Assembly: GCF_009914755.1 (NCBI RefSeq)
Contig: NC_060936.1
Length of the DNA: 64,000 nucleotides
Origin: the human T2T-CHM13v2.0 reference genome, Homo sapiens
Strand: one strand, 5' to 3'
Every line of letters starts with the position of its first letter. Position 1 is the first letter of the stretch. The position numbers and the translations under genes are program-made. Under the pieces are notes generated by a model. That model did no database searches and was not told the origin of the DNA. It worked only from the letters and a program-made list of their open reading frames with translations. Shown piece by piece: positions 5,845 to 18,299 of this stretch.

Positions 5845-7471
5845 AGGCCATCGATGCTATAAAGAAACTGCACCAACTAATGGCCAAAATAAAAAGCTAG
5901 CATCATAATGACAGTATCAAATTCACACATAACAATATTAACCTTAAATGTAAATGGGCTAAGTGCCCAAATTAAAAGACTCAGACTGGGAAACTGGATG
6001 AAGAGTCAAGACCCATCAGTGTGCTGTATTCAGAGACCCATCTCATGTGCAGAGACACACATAGGGTCAAAATAAAGGGATGGAGGAAGATCTACCAAAC
6101 AAATGGAAAGCAAAAAAAAATAGGGGTTACAATCCTAGTCTCTGATAAAACAGACTTTAAACCAACAAAGATCAAAAGAGACGAAGATTGGCATTACATA
6201 ATGGTAAAGGGATCAATGCAACAAAAAGAGAATAACTATCCTAAATATATATGCACTCAATACAGGAGCACCCAGATTCATAAAGCAAGTTCTTAGAGAC
6301 CTACAAAGAGACTTAGATTCCTACACAATAATAGTGGGAGACTTTAACACCCCACTGTCAATCTTAGACAGGACAACGAGACAGAAAATTAACAAGAATA
6401 TTCAGGACTTGAACTCAGCTCTGGACCAAATGGAACTAATAGACATCTACAGAACCCTCCACCCCAAATCAACAGAATATACATTCTTCTCAGCACCACA
6501 TCACACCTACTCTAAAACTGACCACATAATTGGAAGTAAAACACTCCTCAGCAAATGGAAAGGAACAAAAATCATAACAAACAGTCTCTCAGACCACAGT
6601 GCAATCAAATTACAACTCAGAATTAAGAAAATCACTCAAAATCGCACACCTACATGGAAACTGAACAACCTGCTCCTGAATGACTACTGGGTAAATAAGG
6701 AAATTAAGGCAGAAATAAAGAAGTTCTTTGAAACCAATGAGAAAAAAGACTCAACATACCAGAATATCTGGGACACATTTAAAGCAGTGTCTAGAGGGAA
6801 ATTTAAAGCACTAAATGCTCACAAGAGAAAGCAGGAAAGATCTAAAATCAACACCCTAACATCACAACTAAAATAACTTGGGAAGCAAGAGCAAATAAAT
6901 TCACAATCTAGCAAAAGACAAGAAATAACTGAGATCAGATCAGAACAGAAGGAGATAGAGATATGAAAAACCCCTCAAAAGATTAATGAATCCAGGAGCT
7001 GGTTTTTTGAAAATATCAACAAAATCGATTGACCACTACCCATATTAATACAGAAGAAAAGAGAGGAGACTCAAATAGACACAATAAAAAATGATAAAGG
7101 GGATATCACCACTGATCCCACAGAAATACAAACTGCCATCAGAGAATACTATAAACACCTCTATGCAAATAAACTAGAAAATCTAGAAGAAATGGGTAAA
7201 TTCCTGGACACATACACCCTCCCAAGACTAAACCAGGAAGAAGTTGAATCCCTGAATAGAACAATAACAAGTTCTGAAATTGAGGCAGTAATTAATAGCC
7301 TACCAACTAAAAAAAAGTCCAGGACCAGACAGATTCACAGATGAATTCACCCAGTGGTTAAAAGAGGAGCTGATACCATTCCTTCTGAAACTATTCCAAA
7401 CAATAGAAAAAGAGGGAATTCTCCCTAACTCATTTTATGAGGCCAACATCATCCTGATACCAAAGCCCGAC

Positions 7472-8541
7472 TGTTGCGGGAAGTCAGGGACCCCAAACGG
7501 AGGGACCAGCTGAAGCCATGGCAGAAGAACGTAGATTGTGAAGATTTCATGGACATTTATTAGTTCCCCAAATTAATACTTTTGTAATTTCTTATGCCTG
7601 TCTTTACTGCAATCTCTAAACATAAATTGTGAAGATTTCATGGACACTTATCACTTCCCCAATCAATACCCTTGTGATTTCCTATGCCTGTCTTTACTTT
7701 AATCTCTTAATCCTATCAGCTGAGGAGGATGTTTGTCGCCTCAGGACTCTATAATAATTGCATTAACTGCACAAATTGTACAGCATGTGTGTTTGAGCAA
7801 TATGAAATCTGGGCACCTTGAAAAAAGAACAGGATAACAGGAATTGTTCAGGGAACAAGAGAGATAACTTTAAACTCTGACCGCCGGTGAGCCAGGTGTA
7901 ACAGAGCCATATTTCTCTTCTTTCAAAAGCAAATGGGAGAAATATCGCTGAATTCCTTTTCTCAGCAAGGAACATCCCTGGGAAAGAGAATATGTGCCTG
8001 GGGGTGGATCTCTGAACTGGCCTCCCTGGGTGTGGCCGTCTCTTATGGTCGAGGGTGTAGGGGTGAAATAGACCCCAGTCTCCCAAGCATTCCCAGGCTT
8101 ATTAGGAAGAGGAAATTCCCGCCTAATAAATTTTGGTCAGACCTGTTGATCTCAAAGCCCTGTCTCCTGATAAGATGTTATCAATGACAATGGTGCCTGA
8201 AACTTCATTAGCAATTTTAATTTTGCCTCGGTCCTGTGGTCCTGTGATCTTGCCCTGTCTCCACTTGCCTTGTGATATTTTATTACCTTGTAAAGTACTT
8301 GATGTCTGTGGCCCACACCTATTCGCACACTCCCTCCACTTTTGAAAATCCCTAATAAAATCTTGCTGGTTTTTGTGGCTTGTGGGGCATCACAGAACCT
8401 ACCGACATGTGATGTCTACCCCAGATGCCCAGCTCTAAAATTTCTCTCTTTTGTACTCTGTCCCTTTATTTCTCAAGCTGGCCAATTCTTAAGGAAAATA
8501 GAAAAGAACCTACTTGAGTATCGGGGGCAGAGTCCCCGATA
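7472..8541 (+). mobile_element. MER11 (MER11C-like, 1070 bp) LTR, inverted relative to the provirus body
   Basis: Starts TGTTGCGGGAAGTCAGGGACCCC, internal ~90 bp tandem duplication, AATAAA, ends CCCCGATA. Confidence 0.92.
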
Positions 8542-8543
8542 TC

Positions 8544-8561
8544 TGGCGCCCAACGTGGGGC
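8544..8561 (+). promoter_or_regulatory. Primer-binding site, perfect 18-nt complement of the tRNA-Lys(CUU) 3' end
   Basis: TGGCGCCCAACGTGGGGC, 2 nt after the LTR end. Confidence 0.93.
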
Positions 8562-9870
8562 CAGTTTGATTATTCGTCCAAATTTTGATATTTCCTACTA
8601 ACAGCATGTAAAGAGGCTTAACACAACTCTGTATGGGAACAGTCAGGTTGGAGGTAAGTAAAGCAGAATGTCTGGGTCTACGATGATACTGAGAGAGTGG
8701 GACGGTAGTGGGAACAACAGTCAGAATAGTTTTCCCTTCCCATACTCGCAGTCCGGACATGGCACAGCCAATTTCCAAAGTTCTGGGTGTTCTGGGCCCA
8801 GAATGGGAAGTATCATACGAGGCCTCGGAGGGGGCGGTAATGCCTTTATTTTCCCATTTTAAGGGAACGAATGAGCTGATCCTCCTATGCAAAGTTGAAT
8901 GATGATTCTCATTCTCCTGATAAGAAATAAAATTAGCCTCCAGGCTTTCCCTTCCACCAGAGAAGCAATTGTTTTTTAAATAGCCCTTTGGTGCTCAGTC
9001 TATTACTAAACCATATGAGTCATTTTTTAATATTGCTGCATGTGAGTTAACACAATCTTCCAAATTAAAGTTTTAGATGGGCCCTCAAAATTTTTAGGTC
9101 ATGATTTTCCTGCAGGTTTATATTGAAAGTATGGGGTATCTCCCATTACTCCTCCTTTCATTTGTTTTAAAGGAGAAAGGGAGAGGCCAGAGACCAAATG
9201 TCCCGTTTTATCTGTAGCTGATCTTTCCGGAAGATAAACGGCCCAGACTTGAGTTTCTAGATGGATGCAACCAGGTGCATGTCTGAGACACAGAGGCGGG
9301 TATTTATAACCCATGGTAACATTAAATGCAGTGCCTTCTTCTCCTGGTTGAGCAGGGCAATGGTCATCTGTGGCTCCAGGCATCCACACACTATCGTTAG
9401 TGTAGATTTCTGCAGGAGCATCTATCCAGTTGAGACGTTGAATAAGTGGAGGAACAGGCACATAAGCCCAGTAAGAATAATTATGTGTAGCAGATAAATC
9501 AGTGTGAGAGAAAACTGGTGAGACAGAAAGTATGAGGAGGAGAATCATTAAATAAAACCTAGTGTAAGTGAGATTGAGTGCTGAAGGAGGAAGAGAAGAA
9601 CAGAGGGATGTTATTTTCAGGCTAATAGAAATGGCAAGATTTTTACATTTGTAAGGAGAAAAAGAAAGGTAATCAGGAGAAGTGTGATTAGTTAGATGGG
9701 CCTCCATTGCCATCATGGAGGATTGATTTATACCCATTGTTATTTGGTGTGCCTGTTTCTGAGGAGTTGGCACAGATCTCACCACGTCTGAAGGCAGTCT
9801 CTGACACAGACACCTTTTCTCTGTGATTTTCGTTGTCAGTATTCACCTGACGCTTGAGTCTTCTGGGGGG
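8562..9870 (-). pseudogene. env: HML-8 env remnant (signal peptide and SU only; TM missing)
   Basis: NYSYWAYVPVPPLI, YTNDSVWMPGATDD, GYKYPPLCL and CVKPLYMLLVGNI are homologous to HML-2 SU; truncated before the furin site. Confidence 0.88.
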
Positions 9871-12371
9871 TACCCAGACAGGGGATTGATGATCTCCTGG
9901 TGAAACACAAGCATATCCTCTTCCCCACATTATAATTGTGCCAGGTTCTCAGGTATTGGTTTGGGAGTTTTTCCATAACACTGGCTTGCCTTCGTTTAAG
10001 GAGAATTTTTTGCCTGTATAATGGTGTTCGGCTGCAGTTAGAGTATTATCTTTAGGAACAGTTAAAAAATTTAAAGTAAACAATGCCAAATGTAATTGGG
10101 AGTGGGGAGTAGTTAAATCATGTTTTGGTTGTTCAGATTGTTTGGACAATTGGGTTTTTAAAGTGCGATTGGCCTGCTCCACCACAGCCTGTCCCTGAGG
10201 ATTGTAAGGGATTCCAGTAATATGGGAAATTTCCCACTGTTGCATAAATGAATCAAAAACCTTACTAACAATTCTAGGGGCATTGTCTATCTTTATTTGA
10301 TATGGAAGCCTCATAACTGCAAAGCAAGAATATAGATTTTTTTTTAACATGGGCTGTGCCTTCCCCTCTTTGGCAAGTAGCCCAGATAAAACCTGAGAAG
10401 GTATCTACAGAGACATGCACATATGACAGTCTGCCAAAGGAGCTAACATGAGTCACATCCATTTGCCATAAAGCATTAGGAGTTAGGCCTCTAGGATTAA
10501 TGCCAGATTCCTGATTTGGAAGTACGAAGACCTGGCACTGAGGGCAGCTGTGAACAATAAACTTAGCCTGTTTCCAGGTAAGAGCAAACTTATCTTTTAA
10601 TCCAGCGGCATTGACGTGAGCGAGATTATGGAACTCCTGAGCTTCTTGGGTTGCAAAATAGACCAAAGAGTCGACTTTATGGTTACTGGCAGACATGGGT
10701 CCTGGTAAAGTGGTATGAAACCTAGTATGTGTAATATAGAAAGGGTGTCTATGTTGGTGAACCGCCTGTTGTAACCTTGAAAATAAAGAAGCCAATTCAG
10801 AATTATCAATATGTTTGATAGTAGCAGTTTCTATATTTTTAGTGGCATGTACAACATAAGCAGAAGCTGAGACAATATTTAAAGGTTTGGGGAAATCCTG
10901 TATAGCAGTAATCACAGCAATTAACTCCACATTTTGAGCAGAAGTATAAGAGGTAGAAATAAGTTTGTCTGTAGGACCTACGTAACTGGCATTGCCATTA
11001 CTGGAGCCATCATTGAACACTGTAACAGCCTCAGGAATGGGTTGATCTTTGGTTAATAGAGGAACCACCCAAGACATCATTTTTATAAAATCAAACAATT
11101 TGTTTTTTGGATAATGATTGTCAATAACACCAATAAAATCAGCCAAGTGAATTTGCCATGGTACAGAATGTTGAAAGGCAGCTTGAACTTCGAGCCGATT
11201 TAAAGGAATTACAATTAAGTTTGGATCAAATCCAGAAATTTGAAGTATTCTGCACTGAGCCTGTCCAATTAATATGGCTATTTGGTCTAGATAAACAGAC
11301 AAAGTTTTTGACACAGAATGAGGAAGAAAACACCACTCCACTAAATTATTATGTTGAACTATTAGTCCAGTAGGGGAGTGTAATGAAGAAAAACCAGAAG
11401 CTGAAGAGGCTGAAATGGCTGTACTCTAGATAACTGGGCAGTCTGGATTCTTTCCTCTATGAATTCCAGTTCTAGTAAAGCCTCAGGAGTCAAAGTCCTG
11501 GTGCTGCAGGATCGGAATCTCCCCGCAGAGTAGAGAATAAGTTAGACAGCACACAGGTTGGAATGCCTAAAGTAGGTCTTAAATAATTAATGTTACCCAA
11601 AAGTTTTTGGAAGTCATTTAACATTTTTAAAGAATCTCTCCTAATTTGAACTTTTTGAGGTTGAATACATTGTTTATCAACCACCGTTCCTAAATATTGA
11701 ACAGGAGTGGTCTGTTGAATTTTATCCTGAGCGATGTGCAATCCAGCCTCTGTAACACAGTGGCTCTAAATTTGGTAACAGTCAATTAATTGTTTATCAG
11801 TGGGGGCAGCAATTAAAATATCATCAATATAATGAAGAATATAGACCTCAGGAAATTGGGCTTGAACTGGTGAAAGCACTTGTCCAACATAAAGCTGGCA
11901 GATTGTAGGGCTATTTAGCATTCCCTGAGGAAGTACTTTCCATTGATAACGAGCTGCAGGCTCCTGATTATTGATAGATGGTACAGTAAAAGCAAATTTT
12001 TCACAATCCAATTTATGTAAAGCAATATGAAAAAAAACTTTAAGATCAATAACTATGAGAGGCCAATTTTTAGGTATTAAAGCAGGGGCAGGCATTCCAG
12101 GTTGGATGACCCCCATAGGTTTAATCACAGTATTAATGGCCCTTAAATCGGTTACCATCTGCCATTTGCCTGATTTCTTCTTTACTAGAAACACAGGAGA
12201 ATTCCAAGGGGAAAGAGAAGGTTCCACATTTCCAAGTTGCAACTGCTCAGAAACCAATTGATTTAAAGCCTCCAGTTTTTCTTTAGAAAGTGGCCACTGC
12301 TGAATCCAGGCAGGTGTGTCAGATTTCCATTGCAAGGTAATAGGATCAGGAGGCATGGCAGCAGCCGCCAC
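9688..12371 (-). pseudogene. pol: HML-8 pol remnant (RT, RNase H, integrase), frameshifted
   Basis: LPQGMLNSP and YIDD (RT); DGSSNG (RNase H); HNLAH..CPQC, WQMDVTH, PYNPQGQAVVE and [11 protein letters not shown] (IN). Confidence 0.93.
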
Positions 12372-12929
12372 TAAAAATGATAACCTAAACCAGCCCTGTT
12401 TTCTTTTATAGTAACTGGGAGGGGTTTAGTAATCCCTTCATGCTTTGGACCGAGACTGAGTCCAGGAACAAACCCCATATTTTCCATCATATGCTGACTG
12501 GGAGCACTATAAGTGTTATGTGGAATATTAATTTCAGCCTCCCACTGTGCCAGTAAATCTACACCCCAAAGATTAATGGGAATTGGTATGATATAGGGCT
12601 GAATTGTACCCTTTTGACCATCAGGGCCAGTGCAAGGCAAGATAAATGTGCTCTCATAAACTTCCTCAGCCTTTCCAACACCTACTAGTCCCATGTTAGC
12701 CAGATGTTTAAGCCAAGAGGAAGGCCATAAACTAGAGGAAATAACAGAAACATCAGCACCAGTATCTACTAGGCCCTCAAACTTTCTTCCTTGAATGTGT
12801 ATGGTGCAGGTGGGCCGTTGTTTAGAAATTATATTAATCCAATAAGCGGCCTTTTCACCACCGGAGCCCATCCCAGGGCCACATGTCTTATCTACTATGT
12901 TTAAAACAATATTAGGTAGTCAAAGCAAT
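12371..12929 (-). pseudogene. pro: HML-8 pro remnant: dUTPase C-terminal stub, aspartic protease and G-patch
   Basis: GLVDTGADVSVI active site, PINLWGVDLL, G-patch MMENMGFVPGLSLG; protease frame open 12371-12871. Confidence 0.9.
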
Positions 12930-14694
12930 TGTTAAAAACTTTTTAACAGTGCAATTTTTTTGAATATGACCAAGTTGTTCACAATCATAGCAGGCTCCAA
13001 GAGAAGAATTAATGGGACCAGTGTGGTTGGTGTCCTTCATGGCCCATGCCCACAGAATAGTTTTGTGGGCATCTGATCCAATGCCTTCACAAGCTTTAAT
13101 ATATGCAGGCAACACCTCATGATCAGGTAAATTTTGTCGTTGGACAGAACGCATGGCCATTTTACATTCATGGTTTGCATTTTCAAAAGCTAACATAGGA
13201 AGGAGAATGCCTTGAGCGCACTCATCAGAGACAGATTTTTTAACAGCATCTTGTAATTTAGCCAAAAAATCAGGGTATAATTCAGGGTGACCTTGTTTAA
13301 CTGTGGTAAAAGAAACAGGAGTTTGGCCTGGAGCACATAATTTATCCCAAGCTCTCATGCACACCTTTGTTACTTGTTCTGTGGTAAGGGCATCAAAGTT
13401 TAATTGGGCATAAGCATCAGAGAAACTATGGGAGCCTGTGAGCTGAGCTTGAGTAATTAGAATGCCATTACTGTTATTTAGCTGAGCCTACAAACGGGCC
13501 TCCTCTGACCACCAGGTATGGAATTGTAAATGCTGAGATGGGGTTAGAACAGCTTTTGCCGAAAGGTCCCAATCTAAAGGGAGTAAAGTGACCTCAGTAC
13601 AAAAAGTTTGTAAAACCATCTTAACATAAGGAGAAGTAGGACCATACTGAGTACAAGCATCCTTAAATTCTTTTAAAAAGGTAAGATTAAGAGGTACATA
13701 ATGATGCATTTGCAACCCTTGGAAGTTAGGTGGGTCTAGCGCGACCAGATAAGTCCACGCGTCTAATCCACTTGTTTCTCTGTTTTGGCATAACAAGCTT
13801 TGCATTGAAGTTTCAAGAGTAGGCATCTGAGTCGGAGTCAGCATAGAAGTGACAGGAAAAGCATGTGTAGATAAGGGAAACTGAAGGTGAGAGGGTCGGA
13901 CTGGGATGAGAGTGTGAGAAAGAGGCATTGGGGGAGCAGAAGGAGCAGAAGTATACTGGTGATTACTGGTGTTCACGTGTGAAGAAGGGTACAGAGAAGC
14001 AGGCTGAGTAGATGGTAAAGTGACTGGTTGAGGAACCGAAATGACAGGAGGGTGAGGGGCTGAAGTGGGTGGGGGAGGGCCAGCAGAATTACAGGTAAAG
14101 TGTAGTTTGGTCCCAGAGCCGCTAGGTGATTCCAGAGGTTTGAGAAGAGAAGAATTAGCATATATAGGATCCTGGGCTGTGTGAGTCCAGGCTGCAGGAG
14201 TTACACGTACTGGTTATTCATGAAAAGAAATAAGATCATCAGGGTGACCATAAGTCAAAGTCACTGGAGTTAGACATTGAATTGTCTACATTGTCAGGTA
14301 GGGAAGGAGTAGCCGGAGGGAGAGGCTGATCAGATAACGAAGGCCGTGCAGGAGAGAAAGATTGAAGAAAAGGTGGAGGATCGTCAGATTCAGAAAACTG
14401 TGGTAACTGTAGGGGGCCATGGGATTGGTATGTCATCAGGACAGCACGTACCAAGGCCCAGTCACCCCAAACAGTGATGGGAACATAATTCCCTGTGGAG
14501 ACCAGTTCCCTGAATGTTGTAGCAACATGATCCCATAGTTCTACACCTAAGGTTCCTTTTTCAGGAAACCAAGTACAGTATTTTTCTACCGTCCTGAATA
14601 GAGTGATCATATTTTCCATAGGCAATTGAACACCGCCCTGTTTTAACAGGAGTTTAATATAGCAGAGATAAGCATGATGCTTAGACTCTGCATG
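12930..14694 (-). pseudogene. gag: HML-8 gag remnant (MA, Pro-rich region, CA, first zinc knuckle)
   Basis: MA YCTWFPEKGTL; CA LKEFKDACTQYGPTSPY; MHR VKQGHPELYPDFLAKL; knuckle CYDCEQLGHIQKNC. Confidence 0.9.
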
Positions 14695-14699
14695 AAAGA

Positions 14700-14717
14700 A
14701 AGACCATGGGGGTGCCA
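14700..14717 (-). promoter_or_regulatory. Degenerate genomic PBS of the provirus
   Basis: TGGCACCCCCATGGTCTT, 2 nt downstream of the minus-strand LTR. Confidence 0.8.
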
Positions 14718-14719
14718 GA

Positions 14720-15788
14720 TATCAGGGAATCTGCCCCGATATTCAAGTAGGTTCTTTTCTATTTTCCTTAAGTGTAGGCCAGCTTGAGAAATAAAGGAAC
14801 AGAGTACAAAAGAGAGAAATTTTAAAGCTCAGTGTCTGGGGGAGACATCACATGTCAGTAGGTTCCGTGATGCCCCACAAGCCACAGAAACCAGCAAGTT
14901 TTTATTAGGGATTTTCAAAAGGGGAGGGAGTGTGCGAATAGGTGTGGTCATAGGCATCAAGTATTTTACAAGGTAATAGAATATCACAAGGCAAGTGGAG
15001 GCAGGGAAAGATCACAGGACCACAGGACCAAGGCAAAATTAAAATTGCTAATGAAGTTTTGGGCACGATTGTCATTGATAACATCTTATCAGGAGACAGG
15101 GTTTTGAGATCAAGCGGTCCGACCAAAATTTATTAGGCGGGAATTTCCTCTTCCTAATAGGCCTGGGAACGCTATAGGAGACTGGGGTCTATTTCACCCC
15201 TACAGCCTCGACCATAAGAGACGGCCGTGCCCAGGGGGGCCAGTTCAGAGACCCACCCCCAGGCACATATTCTCTTTCCCAGGGATGTTCCTTGCTGAGA
15301 AAAGGAATTCAGCGATATTTCTCCCATTTGCTTTTGAAAGAAGAGAAATATGGCTCTGTTACACCTGGCTCACCGGTGGTCAGAGTTTAAGGTTATCTCT
15401 CTTATTCCCTGAACAATTGCTGCTATCCTGTTCTTTTTTCAAGGTGCCCAGATTTCATATTGCTCAAACACACATGCTGTACAATTTGTGCAGTTAATGC
15501 AATTATTACAGGGTCCTGAGGCGACATACATCCTCCTCAGCTGATAGGATTAAGAGATTAAAGTAAAGACAGGCATAGGAAATCACAAGGGTATTGATTG
15601 GGGAAGTGATAAGTGTCCATGAAATCTTCACAATTTATGTTTAGAGATTGCAGTAAAGACAGGCATAAGAAATTACAAAAGTATTAATTTGGGGAACTAA
15701 TAAATGTCCATGAAATCTTCACAATCTACATTCTTCTGCCATGGCTTCAGCCGGTCCCTCCATTTGGGGTCCCTGACTTCCCGCAACA
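14720..15788 (-). mobile_element. MER11 5' LTR (1069 bp)
   Basis: Reverse complement of 7472-8541, roughly 95% identical by eye. Confidence 0.93.
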
Positions 15789-18299
15789 CCTGACAGAGAC
15801 ACAACAAAAAGAGAAAATTTAGGCCAATATACCTGATGAACATCAATGCGAAAATCCTCAGTATAATACTGGCAAACTGAATCCAGCAGCACATCAAAAA
15901 GCTTATCCACTACGATCAAGTGGGCTTTATCCCTGGGATGCAAGGCTGGTTCTACATACATAAATCAATAAACACAATCCATCACATAAACAGAAGCAAT
16001 GACAAAACAAGATTATCTCAATAAATTCAGAAAAGGCCTTCGACAAAAATCAACAGCCCTTCATGCTAAAATCTCTCAATGAACTAGGTATCTGTTCAAA
16101 ATAATAAGAGCTATTTATGATAAACCCACAGCCAATATCATACTTAATTGGCAAAACCCAGAAGCATTCCCATTGAAAACTGGCACAAGACAAGGATGCC
16201 CTCTTTCACCAATCCTCTTCAACATATTATTGAAAGTTCTGGCCAGGGCAACTGGAGAAGAGAAAGAAATAAAGCTTATTCAAATAGGAATAGAGGAATT
16301 CAAATTGTCTCTGTTTGCAGATGACATGATTGTATATTTAGAAAATCCCATCATCTCAGCCCAAAATCTTCTTAAGCTGATAAGCAACTTCAGCAAATCC
16401 TGAGGATACAAAATCAATGTGCAAAAATCACAAGCATTCCTACACAACCATAACAGACAAACAGAGAGCCAAATCAAGAGTGAACTCCCATTCACAATTA
16501 CTACAAAGAGAATAAAACACCTCGGAATACAACTTACAAGGGAGTGAAGGACCTCTTCAAGGGGAACCACAAACCACTGCCCAAGGAAATAAGAGAGGAC
16601 ACAAACAAATGGAAAAACATTCCATGCTCATGGATAGGAAGAATCAATATCGTGAAAATGGCCATACTGCCTAAAGTAATTTATACATTTAATGCTATCC
16701 CCATCAAGCTACCATTGATTTTCTTCCCAGAATTAGAAAAAACTACTTTAAATTTCATATGGAACCAAAAAAGGGTCCACATAGCCAAGACAATCCTAAG
16801 CAAAAAGAACAACACTGTAGGCATCACACTACCTGATTTCAAACTATACTACAAGGACACCATAACCAAAACAGCATAGTACTTTTACCAAAACAGATAT
16901 ACAGATAAATGGAACAGAACAGAGGCCTCAGAAATAACACCACAGATGGTGGTAATAACATATGAGATGTAGATACAGCCATCTGATCTTGGGCAAACCT
17001 TACAGAAACAAGCATTGGGGAAAGGATTCCCTATTCAATAAAAGGTGTTGGAAAAACTGGCTAGCCATATGCAGAAAACTGAAACTGGACCCCTTCCTTA
17101 CACCTTATACAAAAATTAACTCAAGATGGATTAAAGACTTAAATGTAATACCTAACACCATAAAAACTCTAGAAGAAAACCTAGGCACTACCATTCTGGA
17201 CATAGATATGGGCAAAGACTTCACGACTAAAACACCAAAAGCATTGGCAACAAAAGCCAAAATTGACAAATAGGATCTAATTAAACTAAAGAGCTTCTGC
17301 ACAGCATAAGAAACTATCATCAGAGGGAACAGGCAACCTACAGAATTGGAGAAAATCTTTGCAATCTATCTATCTGACAAGAGGCTAATATCCAGAATCT
17401 ACAAATAACTTAAACAAATTTACAAGAAAAAAAAACCATCAAAAAGTGGGCGAAGGATATGAACAGATACTTCTCAAAAGAAGACATTTATGCAGCCAAG
17501 AAACATATGAAAAAAAGCTCATTATCACTGATTATTAGAGATATGAAAGTCAAAACAATAATGAGATACCATCTCATGCCAGTTTGAATGGCCGTCATTA
17601 AAAAGTCAGTAAACAACAGATGCTGGACAGGATGTGGAGAAAAATGAATGCTTTTACACTGTTGGTGGGAGTGTAAATTAGTTCAACCATTGTGGAAGAC
17701 AGTGTGGCAATTCCTCAAGGATCTACAACTAGAAATACCATTTGACCCAGCAATCGCATTACTGGTATATACCCAAAGGATTATAAATTATTCTACTATA
17801 AAGACACTTGCACACATATGTTTATTGTGGCACTGTTCTCAATATCAAAGACCCATTTGATATTGGAAATGGGTTTTTTGATGTGGAAAAAACCCAAATG
17901 CCCATCAATGATAGACTGGATAAAGAAAATGTGGCACATATATACTGTGGAATACTATGCAGCCATAAAAAAGGATGACTTCATGTCCTTTGCAGGTACA
18001 TGAACGACGCTGGAAACAATCATTCTTAGCAAACTAACACAAGAACGGAAAATCAAACACCACATGTTCTCACTCATAAGTGGGAGTTGAACAATGAGAA
18101 CACATGGACACAGGGAGGGGAACATCACACACTGAGGTGAGGGGCTAAGGGATGGATAGCATTAGGAGAAACACTTAATATGATGACAGGTTGATGGGTG
18201 CAGCAAACCACCATGGCACGTGTATATCTATGTAACAAACCTACACGTTCTGCACATGCACCCCAGAACTTAAAGTACAATAATAAAAAAAAGAAAAAA

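What the first reader, a model, noticed from the sequence alone, without database searches (positions are those of the whole stretch)
8530..8580. Fossil plus-strand strong-stop DNA: LTR plus exactly 18 nt of tRNA-Lys(CUU) copy fused to antisense env
Seen: after the LTR end and TC comes TGGCGCCCAACGTGGGGC (8544-8561), and the sequence switches at once to antisense env SU (...NIKIWTNNQT). The provirus's own PBS is different (TGGCACCCCCATGGTCTT). Known: these 18 nt match the tRNA-Lys(CUU) 3' end, and plus strong-stop DNA is U3-R-U5 plus 18 tRNA-copied nt, ending at m1A58. Inference: the left arm is a strong-stop DNA that failed second-strand transfer, possibly because the genomic PBS was mismatched. 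It was then joined to, or primed on, a plus-sense strand within env, giving the inverted genome.
Basis: partly seen in the sequence, partly recalled or inferred. Interest (0 to 1): 0.88.

Follow-up and report, generated by a model that had tools for sequence, protein, structure and literature searches.

The report
Inverted-LTR provirus preserving strong-stop DNA
An ancient retrovirus copy on human chromosome 12 was inserted with its two end-repeats facing each other, and one arm still ends in the exact 18 letters the virus copied from its host tRNA primer, so it records a reverse-transcription step that went wrong.

Summary
A MER11C-type LTR (7472-8541, +) is followed by TC. Then comes TGGCGCCCAACGTGGGGC (8544-8561), the exact complement of the 3' 18 nt of tRNA-Lys(CUU). 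Antisense HERVK11 env begins at once at 8562. The rest of the provirus runs on the minus strand to its own degenerate PBS (14717-14700) and a second, inverted LTR (15788-14720).

New here:
- The whole inverted-LTR unit is flanked by one 6-bp target duplication (CCCGAC/CCTGAC) inside a single L1. It therefore entered as one DNA molecule with a U3 end on both sides.
- PBS nt 16-18 (GGC) match the tRNA. None of 24 other HERVK11 leaders has them, and none of 28 other env copies has GGGGC at the junction.
- Nt 19 is not the tRNA's.

Best reading (about 0.78): the left arm is plus-strand strong-stop DNA that missed the second strand transfer. Its 3' end became continuous with minus-sense env DNA, and integrase inserted the product through two U3 ends. 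How the strands were joined is inferred: reverse-transcriptase priming or template jumping is favoured over end-joining.

Two HML-2 loci (7q22.2, 7q34) share the architecture at a 7-nt PBS/pol overlap, which suggests a recurrent pathway. Ten literature searches found no description of it.

The parts
7466..7471 (.). Left copy of the 6-bp target-site duplication (CCCGAC) in L1 ORF2-derived sequence
   Evidence: An uninterrupted L1 (L043:176-181) is matched by both the last 6 nt of the left flank and the first 6 nt of the right flank. A second L1 comparator in the window agrees.
7472..8541 (+). Left LTR (MER11C type, 1070 nt; TGTTGCGGG...CCCCGATA), U3-R-U5 in plus orientation
   Evidence: Inverted repeat with 14734-15788. 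95% identical to the right LTR, which is its best non-self hit in the genome. 53 substitutions between the arms, split 23 left-derived and 26 right-derived against 4 outgroup LTRs.
8542..8543 (+). TC spacer between U5 and PBS, as in normal HERVK11 5' ends
   Evidence..GATATC TGG.. in family leaders. Solo LTRs end at ..GATA.
8544..8561 (+). [quoted passage not shown]
   Evidence: 9 tRNA-Lys(CTT) genes; nt 19 would be T. (0 of 24 family PBSs have GGC at nt 16-18).
8562..9842 (-). Antisense env (SU part), truncated. About 841-849 nt of the env 3' end plus the polypurine tract and a normal 3' LTR are absent.
   Evidence: homology to 28 env copies starts at 8562. Pfam HERV-K_env_2, E=1.7e-28. Distance to the 3' LTR in the intact C4 and C8 copies from the coordinates.
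9949..12919 (-). pol (integrase, RNase H, RT thumb, RT) and protease/G-patch, with stops and frameshifts
   Evidence: rve, Integrase_Zn, RNase_H, RVT_thumb, RVT_1, RVP, G-patch.
12912..14694 (-). gag (p10, p24, zinc knuckle), broken. Its first codons and about 136 nt of leader are deleted at the junction 14694|14695.
   Evidence: Leader gap seen against 24 other copies.
14700..14717 (-). The provirus's own genome-type PBS (TGGCACCCCCATGGTCTT), a decayed form of the family PBS
   Evidence: The closest relatives read TGGCACCC-ACGTGGTCTTTC.
14720..15788 (-). Right LTR (5' LTR of the minus-strand provirus), inverted relative to the left LTR. Its outer end is again a U3 start.
15789..15794 (.). Right copy of the target-site duplication (CCTGAC). 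It differs from the left copy by one C/T change at a CpG.

Best explanation
This is one germline insertion of an aberrant HERVK11/HML-8 reverse-transcription product. It is not a rearranged normal provirus.

The left arm is plus-strand strong-stop DNA: U3-R-U5, the TC spacer, and 18 nt copied from the primer tRNA-Lys(CUU) up to the stop before A58. Normally this DNA anneals to the PBS complement at the 3' end of minus-strand DNA. Here its 3' end instead became continuous with minus-sense DNA starting in env, about 0.85 kb upstream of the 3' LTR.

The most likely route is that the 3'-OH was extended by reverse transcriptase on a plus-sense viral template. An equivalent route is a run-off plus strand jumping onto the free 3' end of the strong-stop DNA. 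The far end was then finished like a normal 5' end (PBS-U5-R-U3). The result was a linear duplex whose two termini are both U3 ends. Integrase inserted it in a concerted reaction, making the family's usual 6-bp duplication.

Shown: the anatomy, the tRNA origin of nt 16-18, the break at nt 18/19, the single target duplication, and the sister relationship of the two LTRs.

Inferred: which template was used, whether one or two strong-stop DNAs were involved, and that the family's poor PBS match favoured the failure.
For: 1. Exact 18-nt tRNA-Lys(CUU) complement including TGG for CCA. The 19th base (C) is not the tRNA's (T). Compared with 9 tRNA-Lys(CTT) genes of the same genome.
2. Nt 16-18 = GGC as in the tRNA. 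Nt 16 is T in all 24 other HERVK11 leaders.
3. No leader follows. Env homology starts at 8562 in 28 of 28 other env copies.
4. A 6-bp target duplication (5 of 6 identical, the mismatch a CpG transition) flanks the whole unit. Two uninterrupted L1 copies carry the hexamer once. Four of 4 MER11 solo LTRs checked also have 6-bp duplications.
5. Both outer ends read TGTTGCGGG, the U3 start.
6. The two LTRs are each other's best match (95%; next best 94%). Their 53 differences split 23:26 against outgroups, as expected for arms identical at insertion.
7. The same LTR(+)-PBS-antisense-internal architecture occurs at HML-2 loci 7q22.2 and 7q34, at a 7-nt PBS/pol complementarity. This points to annealing of the strong-stop 3' end.
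8. Background read as passages: m1A58 is the plus-strand termination site (PMC12657518), and the second transfer relies on the PBS complements at the two 3' ends (PMC6088434).
Against: At the env junction there is no useful complementarity: zero overlap, or 2 bp plus a terminal C:T mismatch. That is a poor primer-template pair, so end-joining cannot be excluded.

The complete right LTR requires either a second strong-stop DNA or a finished plus strand as template. Nothing in the sequence tells which.

The empty site and the orthologous loci in other primates were not examined.

LTR divergence is uneven: 97% over the first 612 nt, 93% over the rest. This is unexplained.

None of the 10 literature searches found an experimental precedent for this exact product. 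Older subscription-journal papers were not searchable.
Confidence: 0.78

Rival explanations
1. Same starting material, but the join was made by cellular end-joining rather than by reverse transcriptase. A double-stranded LTR-PBS fragment (strong-stop DNA still paired with its template) was ligated to a broken viral DNA end in env. This happened in the infected cell before integrase inserted the product.
For: The junction has no convincing microhomology, as in blunt non-homologous end-joining. The anatomy, the target duplication and the tRNA-type nt 16-18 fit this reading equally well.
Against: All 18 nt are kept without loss or filler, which is inherent to 3'-OH extension but not to end-joining. 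The two HML-2 loci with the same architecture use a 7-nt G/C-rich complementarity, which suggests annealing. A free double-stranded LTR-PBS fragment is not a standard intermediate (established replication scheme; PMC6088434, passages).
Confidence: 0.15
2. Post-integration chromosomal rearrangement. Two HERVK11 proviruses in opposite orientation, or an inversion within one, were fused by deletion, and the break after PBS nt 18 is coincidental.
For: ERV-mediated rearrangements are common in general (established knowledge). The right arm carries an unrelated 136-nt deletion, which shows the locus has suffered later damage.
Against: The outer ends of the two inverted LTRs are bracketed by one 6-bp duplication, and the L1 is otherwise uninterrupted. 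The chance of at least 5 of 6 matches is about 0.005. The breakpoint sits exactly at nt 18/19. Nt 16-18 are of a type seen in 0 of 24 family members. No env 3' end, polypurine tract or third LTR remnant is present.
Confidence: 0.04
3. Autointegration (intramolecular integration) product, in which integrase inserted the viral ends into the virus's own env and inverted part of the genome.
For: Autointegration is a known source of inverted LTR arrangements in unintegrated retroviral DNA (recalled, not from a call).
Against: In such products the internal junction lies at the LTR terminus itself and is accompanied by a short duplication of the viral target. Here the junction lies 20 nt beyond the LTR end (TC + 18 nt). 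The products are also circles that integrase cannot insert.
Confidence: 0.01

Closest known systems
Plus-strand strong-stop DNA and the second (plus-strand) transfer of retroviral reverse transcription
   Same: The left arm has the defining composition: U3-R-U5, a spacer, and 18 nt templated by the tRNA primer, ending before position 58. Background from PMC6088434 and PMC12657518, read as passages.
   Different: Normally this is a transient intermediate whose tRNA-derived end pairs with the PBS complement and disappears into a normal 5' LTR-PBS-leader. Here the end is joined to antisense env and fixed in a germline.
HIV-1 defective proviruses with tRNA(Lys3) inserts at deletion junctions ('aberrant/deferred second-strand transfer'; PMC12657518, passages read)
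   Same: These are also errors of the plus-strand transfer recorded in integrated DNA, with tRNA-derived sequence marking the junction.
   Different: There the tRNA is read through past A58 (7-54 extra nt). The strand lands on minus-strand DNA in the normal orientation and gives a deletion. Here the copy stops at the normal 18 nt, the strand continues in the opposite sense, and the LTRs end up inverted. An HML-2-type LTR with about 63 nt of tRNA-Lys read-through (L084) is the closer ERV analogue of the HIV class.
HIV-1 proviruses with internal inversions (PMC9278108, passages read: 2 of 78 in its Fig. 5 legend carry inversions)
   Same: Integrated defective proviruses that contain inverted viral sequence.
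   Different: The passages I read give no mechanism, tRNA junction or inverted-LTR structure for them. Whether any has this junction is unknown.
HERV-K(HML-2) loci 7q22.2 (ERVK-14) and 7q34 (ERVK-15), listed in PMC3228705 (table passage read)
   Same: LTR(+), TC, tRNA-Lys PBS, then directly antisense pol-pro-gag-leader-PBS.
   Different: The junction lies in a 7-nt overlap (GTGGGGC), so nt 18 cannot be assigned there. The far end has no LTR (7q22.2) or only 34 nt of U5 plus spacer (7q34). Flanks show no 6-bp duplication (7q22.2) or a 266-273-bp host duplication (7q34). This suggests one-ended, non-concerted insertion.
Canonical HERVK11/HML-8 provirus (12q21.31 entry of PMC10194239; table passage read)
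   Same: Same internal genes, MER11C LTR, and age class (28.5 My, present from gibbon on, per that table).
   Different: The published interval is 7229 bp on the minus strand. That length fits the env junction to the right LTR only, so the inverted left LTR seems not to have been counted. The words 'inverted', 'PBS' and 'tRNA' do not occur in that paper's main text or its 2 held supplements.

Membership tests
HERVK11 / HERV-K(HML-8) provirus with MER11C LTRs | Internal gag-pro-pol-env of betaretrovirus type, homologous to other HERVK11 copies | tested here: met
   Pfam domains in order on the minus strand. 86-96% DNA identity to other genomic copies.
HERVK11 / HERV-K(HML-8) provirus with MER11C LTRs | Two LTRs in direct orientation, 5' LTR-PBS ... 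PPT-3' LTR | tested here: not met
   The LTRs are inverted. The left LTR is followed by a PBS rather than preceded by env 3' end and PPT.
HERVK11 / HERV-K(HML-8) provirus with MER11C LTRs | 6-bp target-site duplication made by integrase | tested here: met
   CCCGAC/CCTGAC. 4 of 4 MER11 solo LTRs checked also have 6-bp duplications.
Plus-strand strong-stop DNA | Complete U3-R-U5 starting at the U3 5' end | tested here: met
   1070-nt LTR from TGTTGCGGG to ..CCCCGATA, colinear with the other arm and with solo LTRs.
Plus-strand strong-stop DNA | 3' end = 18 nt complementary to the mature primer tRNA, CCA included, stopping before the base opposite A58 | tested here: met
   18 of 18 match. Nt 19 is C whereas 9 of 9 tRNA-Lys(CTT) genes predict T.
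Plus-strand strong-stop DNA | PBS portion templated by the tRNA rather than by the viral genome | tested here: met
   Nt 16-18 GGC against T(C)T or TTT in 24 of 24 other HERVK11 leaders. The other arm of the same element carries the genome type.
Plus-strand strong-stop DNA | Modified base m1A58 as the cause of the stop | not testable with these tools
   Only the position of the stop is recorded in DNA. The role of m1A58 is taken from PMC12657518 (passage).
Autointegration (intramolecular integration) product | Internal junction at the very LTR terminus with a short duplication of the viral target | tested here: not met
   The junction is 20 nt beyond the LTR end. The definition of the class is recalled, not from a call.
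tRNA read-through class of aberrant second-strand transfer (HIV-1; PMC12657518) | tRNA-derived sequence beyond nt 18 at the junction, with viral sequence resuming in the same orientation | tested here: not met
   There is no tRNA base beyond nt 18, and the continuation is antisense.

The most novel reading that the evidence does not exclude
There is a recurrent, so far unnamed side-pathway of retroviral DNA synthesis. Plus-strand strong-stop DNA that fails the second jump uses its tRNA-templated 3' end on plus-sense viral nucleic acid. This produces 'head-to-head' genomes that can still enter the germline. Entry is by concerted integration through two U3 ends when a second LTR is completed (12q21.31). 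When it is not completed, entry is one-ended and irregular (HML-2 7q22.2 and 7q34, formed twice at the same 7-nt complementarity). Such fossils directly reveal the primer tRNA and the A58 stop of extinct viruses. The pathway may also account for part of the unexplained 'inversion' class of defective HIV-1 proviruses.
Probability: 0.45. Interest if true: 0.75.

Novelty: new variant of a known kind. Interest (0 to 1): 0.62.

Why it matters
Reverse-transcription intermediates are known from biochemistry and cell culture, and they normally leave no trace. This locus preserves one for roughly 20-30 million years (age from the PMC10194239 table).

It shows several things:
- The extinct HML-8 virus was primed by tRNA-Lys(CUU), although its genomic PBS matches that tRNA poorly. 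A preprint (bioRxiv 10.1101/2022.02.10.479833; passages read) labels the HML-8 PBS 'tryptophan'.
- Plus-strand synthesis stopped after exactly 18 tRNA bases, as in modern retroviruses.
- A viral DNA with two U3 ends can be inserted in vivo with a normal target duplication.

Together with the two HML-2 loci, it defines a searchable signature for surveying primate genomes and HIV proviral datasets: LTR, spacer, PBS, then antisense internal sequence. The locus is also a 1.07-kb inverted repeat spaced by 6.2 kb inside an lncRNA intron, which is a potential hairpin or fragile structure. No present-day function is implied.

Tried and rejected
- ARAGORN finds no tRNA gene in the window, so the 18-mer is not part of a tRNA gene or pseudogene.
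- Homology-driven mis-transfer was rejected: the 18 nt upstream of the env breakpoint in other copies match the PBS at only about 3 positions (by eye).
- Segmental duplication was rejected as the origin of the two HML-2 junction copies. Homology starts exactly at the LTR start and the left flanks are unrelated. Identity is about 90%, with very uneven LTR identity.
- Mini-survey of PBS tails: 43 genomic hits of the Lys(CUU) 18-mer at up to 1 mismatch, where the terminal H of the pattern also counts as a position. Three show antisense internal sequence (this locus, 7q22.2, 7q34) and one shows tRNA read-through. Most of the rest fall into recurring leader types. Of about five rare tails only one could be fetched, and it looks like a normal leader with a splice donor.
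- Literature: 10 searches found no description of an inverted-LTR provirus joined through the strong-stop PBS.
- A 1985 J Virol paper on defective retrovirus DNA that I recall as possibly relevant is not held. It was not seen.
Full report
ANATOMY

The window carries a 1.07-kb inverted repeat: 7472-8526 against 14734-15788, in three blocks of 97%, 93% and 93% complementarity.

The left copy is a MER11-type LTR in plus orientation. It runs from TGTTGCGGG at 7472 to ..CCCCGATA at 8541, followed by TC (8542-8543) and TGGCGCCCAACGTGGGGC (8544-8561).

From 8562 the sequence is HERVK11 internal sequence read backwards. Pfam finds the following in that order on the minus strand, all with stops and frameshifts:
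- HERV-K_env_2
- integrase core and zinc domains
- RNase H
- RT thumb and RT
- protease and G-patch
- Gag p24, zinc knuckle and p10

The minus-strand provirus ends with a shortened leader, its own PBS-like 18-mer TGGCACCCCCATGGTCTT (14717-14700), GA (= TC), and the second LTR (14720-15788). The outer end of that LTR again reads TGTTGCGGG on its own strand.

THE 18-MER IS A tRNA COPY THAT STOPS AT nt 18

The 15 gene-encoded bases occur 30 times in the 3.1-Gb assembly, and the reversed control occurs 0 times. Nine hits are tRNA-Lys(CTT) genes (ARAGORN). The other 21 are preceded by TGG and sit after ERV LTR ends.

In the 9 tRNA genes the three bases in front are never TGG. The window's TGG therefore corresponds to the added CCA of a mature tRNA. 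In the same 9 genes the antisense continues TCGAACCC, so a 19th templated base would be T, and the window has C.

Established knowledge says that plus-strand strong-stop DNA ends after 18 tRNA-templated bases, because m1A58 terminates synthesis (PMC12657518, passage). The second transfer then uses the PBS complements at the two 3' ends (PMC6088434, passages).

NEITHER LEADER NOR ENV EXPLAINS THE LAST BASES

I aligned 24 other HERVK11 5' ends (loci). Their PBS agrees with the tRNA only up to about nt 15 (..ACGTGG) and then reads T(C)TTTCTTTTTCC. Nt 16 is T in 24 of 24, and none has GGC. Eight of them, the closest relatives of this copy, also lack one A (TGGCACCC-ACGTGG).

The left arm therefore carries tRNA-type bases that no sampled family member has. 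The right arm of the same element carries the family type.

On the other side, 28 other env copies read ..TTGGA|CAGTTTG at the homologous point. None has GGGGC, and the base before CAGTTTG is A in all 28. Env thus begins at 8562. Only the GG at 8559-8560 coincide with env.

Overlap at the junction is zero, or 2 bp followed by a terminal mismatch.

ONE INTEGRATION EVENT

The element sits in an L1. The left flank ends ..CCAAAG CCCGAC, and the right flank starts CCTGAC AGAGACACAAC.

An uninterrupted L1 in locus L043 reads ..CCAAAG CCTGGC AGAGACACAAC. BLAST aligns its bases 176-181 to both the last six bases of the left flank and the first six of the right flank. An older L1 copy in the window gives the same count of bases.

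So a 6-bp duplication brackets the whole inverted-LTR unit. Five of 6 bases are identical, and the difference is a C/T at a CpG. Nothing else in the L1 is lost or gained. Four of 4 MER11 solo LTRs that I fetched have 6-bp duplications, three with 6 of 6 bases identical and one with 5 of 6, and all four end in ..TA (GATA, AGTA, GATA, AATA).

The right LTR is the best non-self match of the left LTR in the genome: 95% and 1673 bits, against 94% and 1638 bits for the next. The arms differ by 53 substitutions. Against four outgroup LTRs, 23 are left-derived, 26 right-derived, 2 unclear and 2 neither. That is the pattern expected for arms identical at insertion.

Coordinates of intact copies on C4 and C8 put the env breakpoint 841-849 nt upstream of the 3' LTR. 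That stretch, the polypurine tract and a normal 3' LTR are absent here.

The junction is unique in the genome.

INTERPRETATION

Read on the window's plus strand, the element is a strong-stop DNA followed by minus-sense DNA, from env through gag to PBS-U5-R-U3. Both strands therefore begin with U3-R-U5-PBS.

The simplest history has four steps:
1. A strong-stop DNA did not make the second jump.
2. Its 3' end became continuous with minus-sense DNA. This happened by extension on a plus-sense template (co-packaged RNA or a plus DNA strand), or by a run-off plus strand jumping onto its free 3' end.
3. The other end was completed as a normal 5' LTR.
4. The blunt duplex with two U3 termini was inserted by integrase.

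What is shown: the composition of the left arm, the origin of nt 16-18, the position of the break, and the single target duplication.

What is inferred: the template, the number of strong-stop DNAs, and polymerase versus ligase.

The family-wide mismatch between the genomic PBS and the tRNA would leave the strong-stop 3' end unpaired after a correct jump. This makes failure plausible, but it is a family trait and not proof of cause.

Later chromosomal rearrangement is effectively excluded by the duplication and by the position and type of the PBS. Autointegration is excluded because the junction is 20 nt beyond the LTR edge.

RELATED LOCI

Among the 21 ERV-type hits of the 15-mer, L076 (chromosome 7) shows an LTR5Hs-like LTR in plus orientation, TC, the same perfect 18-mer, and then antisense HML-2 RT. 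Pfam on the minus strand gives RT and thumb, protease/G-patch, dUTPase and Gag through to the leader.

Its far end stops exactly at the outer edge of its own genome-type PBS (TGGTGCCCAACGTGGAGGC), with no LTR and no 6-bp duplication. Size and position fit the 7q22.2 (ERVK-14) entry of PMC3228705 (table passage).

A second locus (L094/L095) fits 7q34 (ERVK-15). It has the same junction with one substitution. It is the only other genomic hit of the 27-nt junction at up to 3 mismatches. Its left flank is unrelated, and its overall identity is about 90%. Its far end carries the PBS plus 34 nt of U5 and spacer. It is flanked by a 266-273-bp host duplication of 95% identity.

In 35 of 38 other HML-2 copies, homology to the query starts at PBS nt 12. 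PBS nt 12-18 (GTGGGGC) are therefore also antisense pol, a 7-nt complementarity that could guide mis-annealing twice.

These loci support annealing and extension of the strong-stop 3' end as a recurring event. They also show what happens when the second LTR is not completed. I followed them only partly.

LITERATURE

PMC10194239 lists 12q21.31 as a minus-strand MER11C provirus of 7229 bp, 28.5 My old, present from gibbon on (table passage). That length equals the distance from the env junction to the right LTR end, so the inverted LTR was apparently not included. 'Inverted', 'PBS' and 'tRNA' are absent from its main text and from its two held supplements.

PMC12657518 (passages) describes HIV-1 proviruses with tRNA(Lys3) read-through at deletion junctions. 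PMC9278108 (passages) reports rare inversions in HIV-1 proviruses, with no mechanism for them in the passages I read.

Ten full-text searches found no description of a provirus with inverted LTRs joined through the strong-stop PBS. Older subscription papers are outside the library, so prior description cannot be excluded.

VERDICT

It is a new variant of a known kind, namely aberrant reverse-transcription products fixed as defective proviruses. It has no implied present function. It has real value as a molecular fossil and as a search signature.

Noticed in passing
L076:530-3015, L092, L091:1-173 (G000:C7:106062273-106067172): HML-2 locus fitting 7q22.2/ERVK-14. An LTR5Hs-like LTR(+), TC and a perfect tRNA-Lys 18-mer are fused to antisense RT just after the thumb domain. 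Then come protease, dUTPase, gag and leader, all antisense. The element ends exactly at the outer edge of its own genome-type PBS, with no second LTR and no 6-bp target duplication.
   Followed up: partly
L094:580-3312 and L095:1-941 (G000:C7:143066953-143072240): HML-2 locus fitting 7q34/ERVK-15 with the same LTR-PBS-antisense-pol junction (one substitution) but unrelated left flank. The far end is the PBS plus 34 nt of U5 and spacer. The element is flanked by a 266-273-bp direct duplication of host DNA (95% identical), which suggests irregular, one-ended insertion.
   Followed up: partly
L084, minus strand (G000:C15:93549303 region): An HML-2-type LTR end, TC and TGG are followed by about 63 nt of antisense tRNA-Lys(CTT). 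This is a strong-stop DNA that read through A58, resembling the tRNA-insert class reported for HIV-1 (PMC12657518).
   Followed up: no
L032-L059 (24 HERVK11 5' leaders), PBS region: No sampled HERVK11 copy has the tRNA-type bases at PBS nt 16-18, and 8 share a 1-nt deletion inside the PBS. In this family the tRNA-templated end of strong-stop DNA seems almost never to be inherited, unlike the roughly even inheritance one might expect. The cause is unknown.
   Followed up: partly
window 14694|14695 (minus-strand provirus): About 136 nt present in 24 other copies are missing between the PBS-proximal TCTTTCTTT and CATGCAGAG. The gap takes out the leader with its GGTGAGT splice-donor-like motif and the first gag codons. 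Whether the deletion arose before or after insertion cannot be told.
   Followed up: partly
window 7472-8541 vs 15788-14720: Divergence between the two LTR arms is uneven: 97% identity over the first 612 nt, 93% over the remaining 440 or so. Possible causes are gene conversion between the inverted arms or regional rate differences. Not resolved.
   Followed up: no
literature: bioRxiv 10.1101/2022.02.10.479833: This preprint states that the HML-8 PBS is of 'tryptophan' type (passages read; it shows a 'PBS amino acid sequence' logo). The tRNA-templated 18-mer here and the family alignment point to tRNA-Lys(CUU).
   Followed up: partly
G000:C2:167201056, C17:44194566, C14:64632017, C19:43114681: Lys-type PBS 18-mers (up to 1 mismatch) followed by rare tails that match none of the recurring leader types. 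They could be low-copy families or further junction fossils.
   Followed up: no
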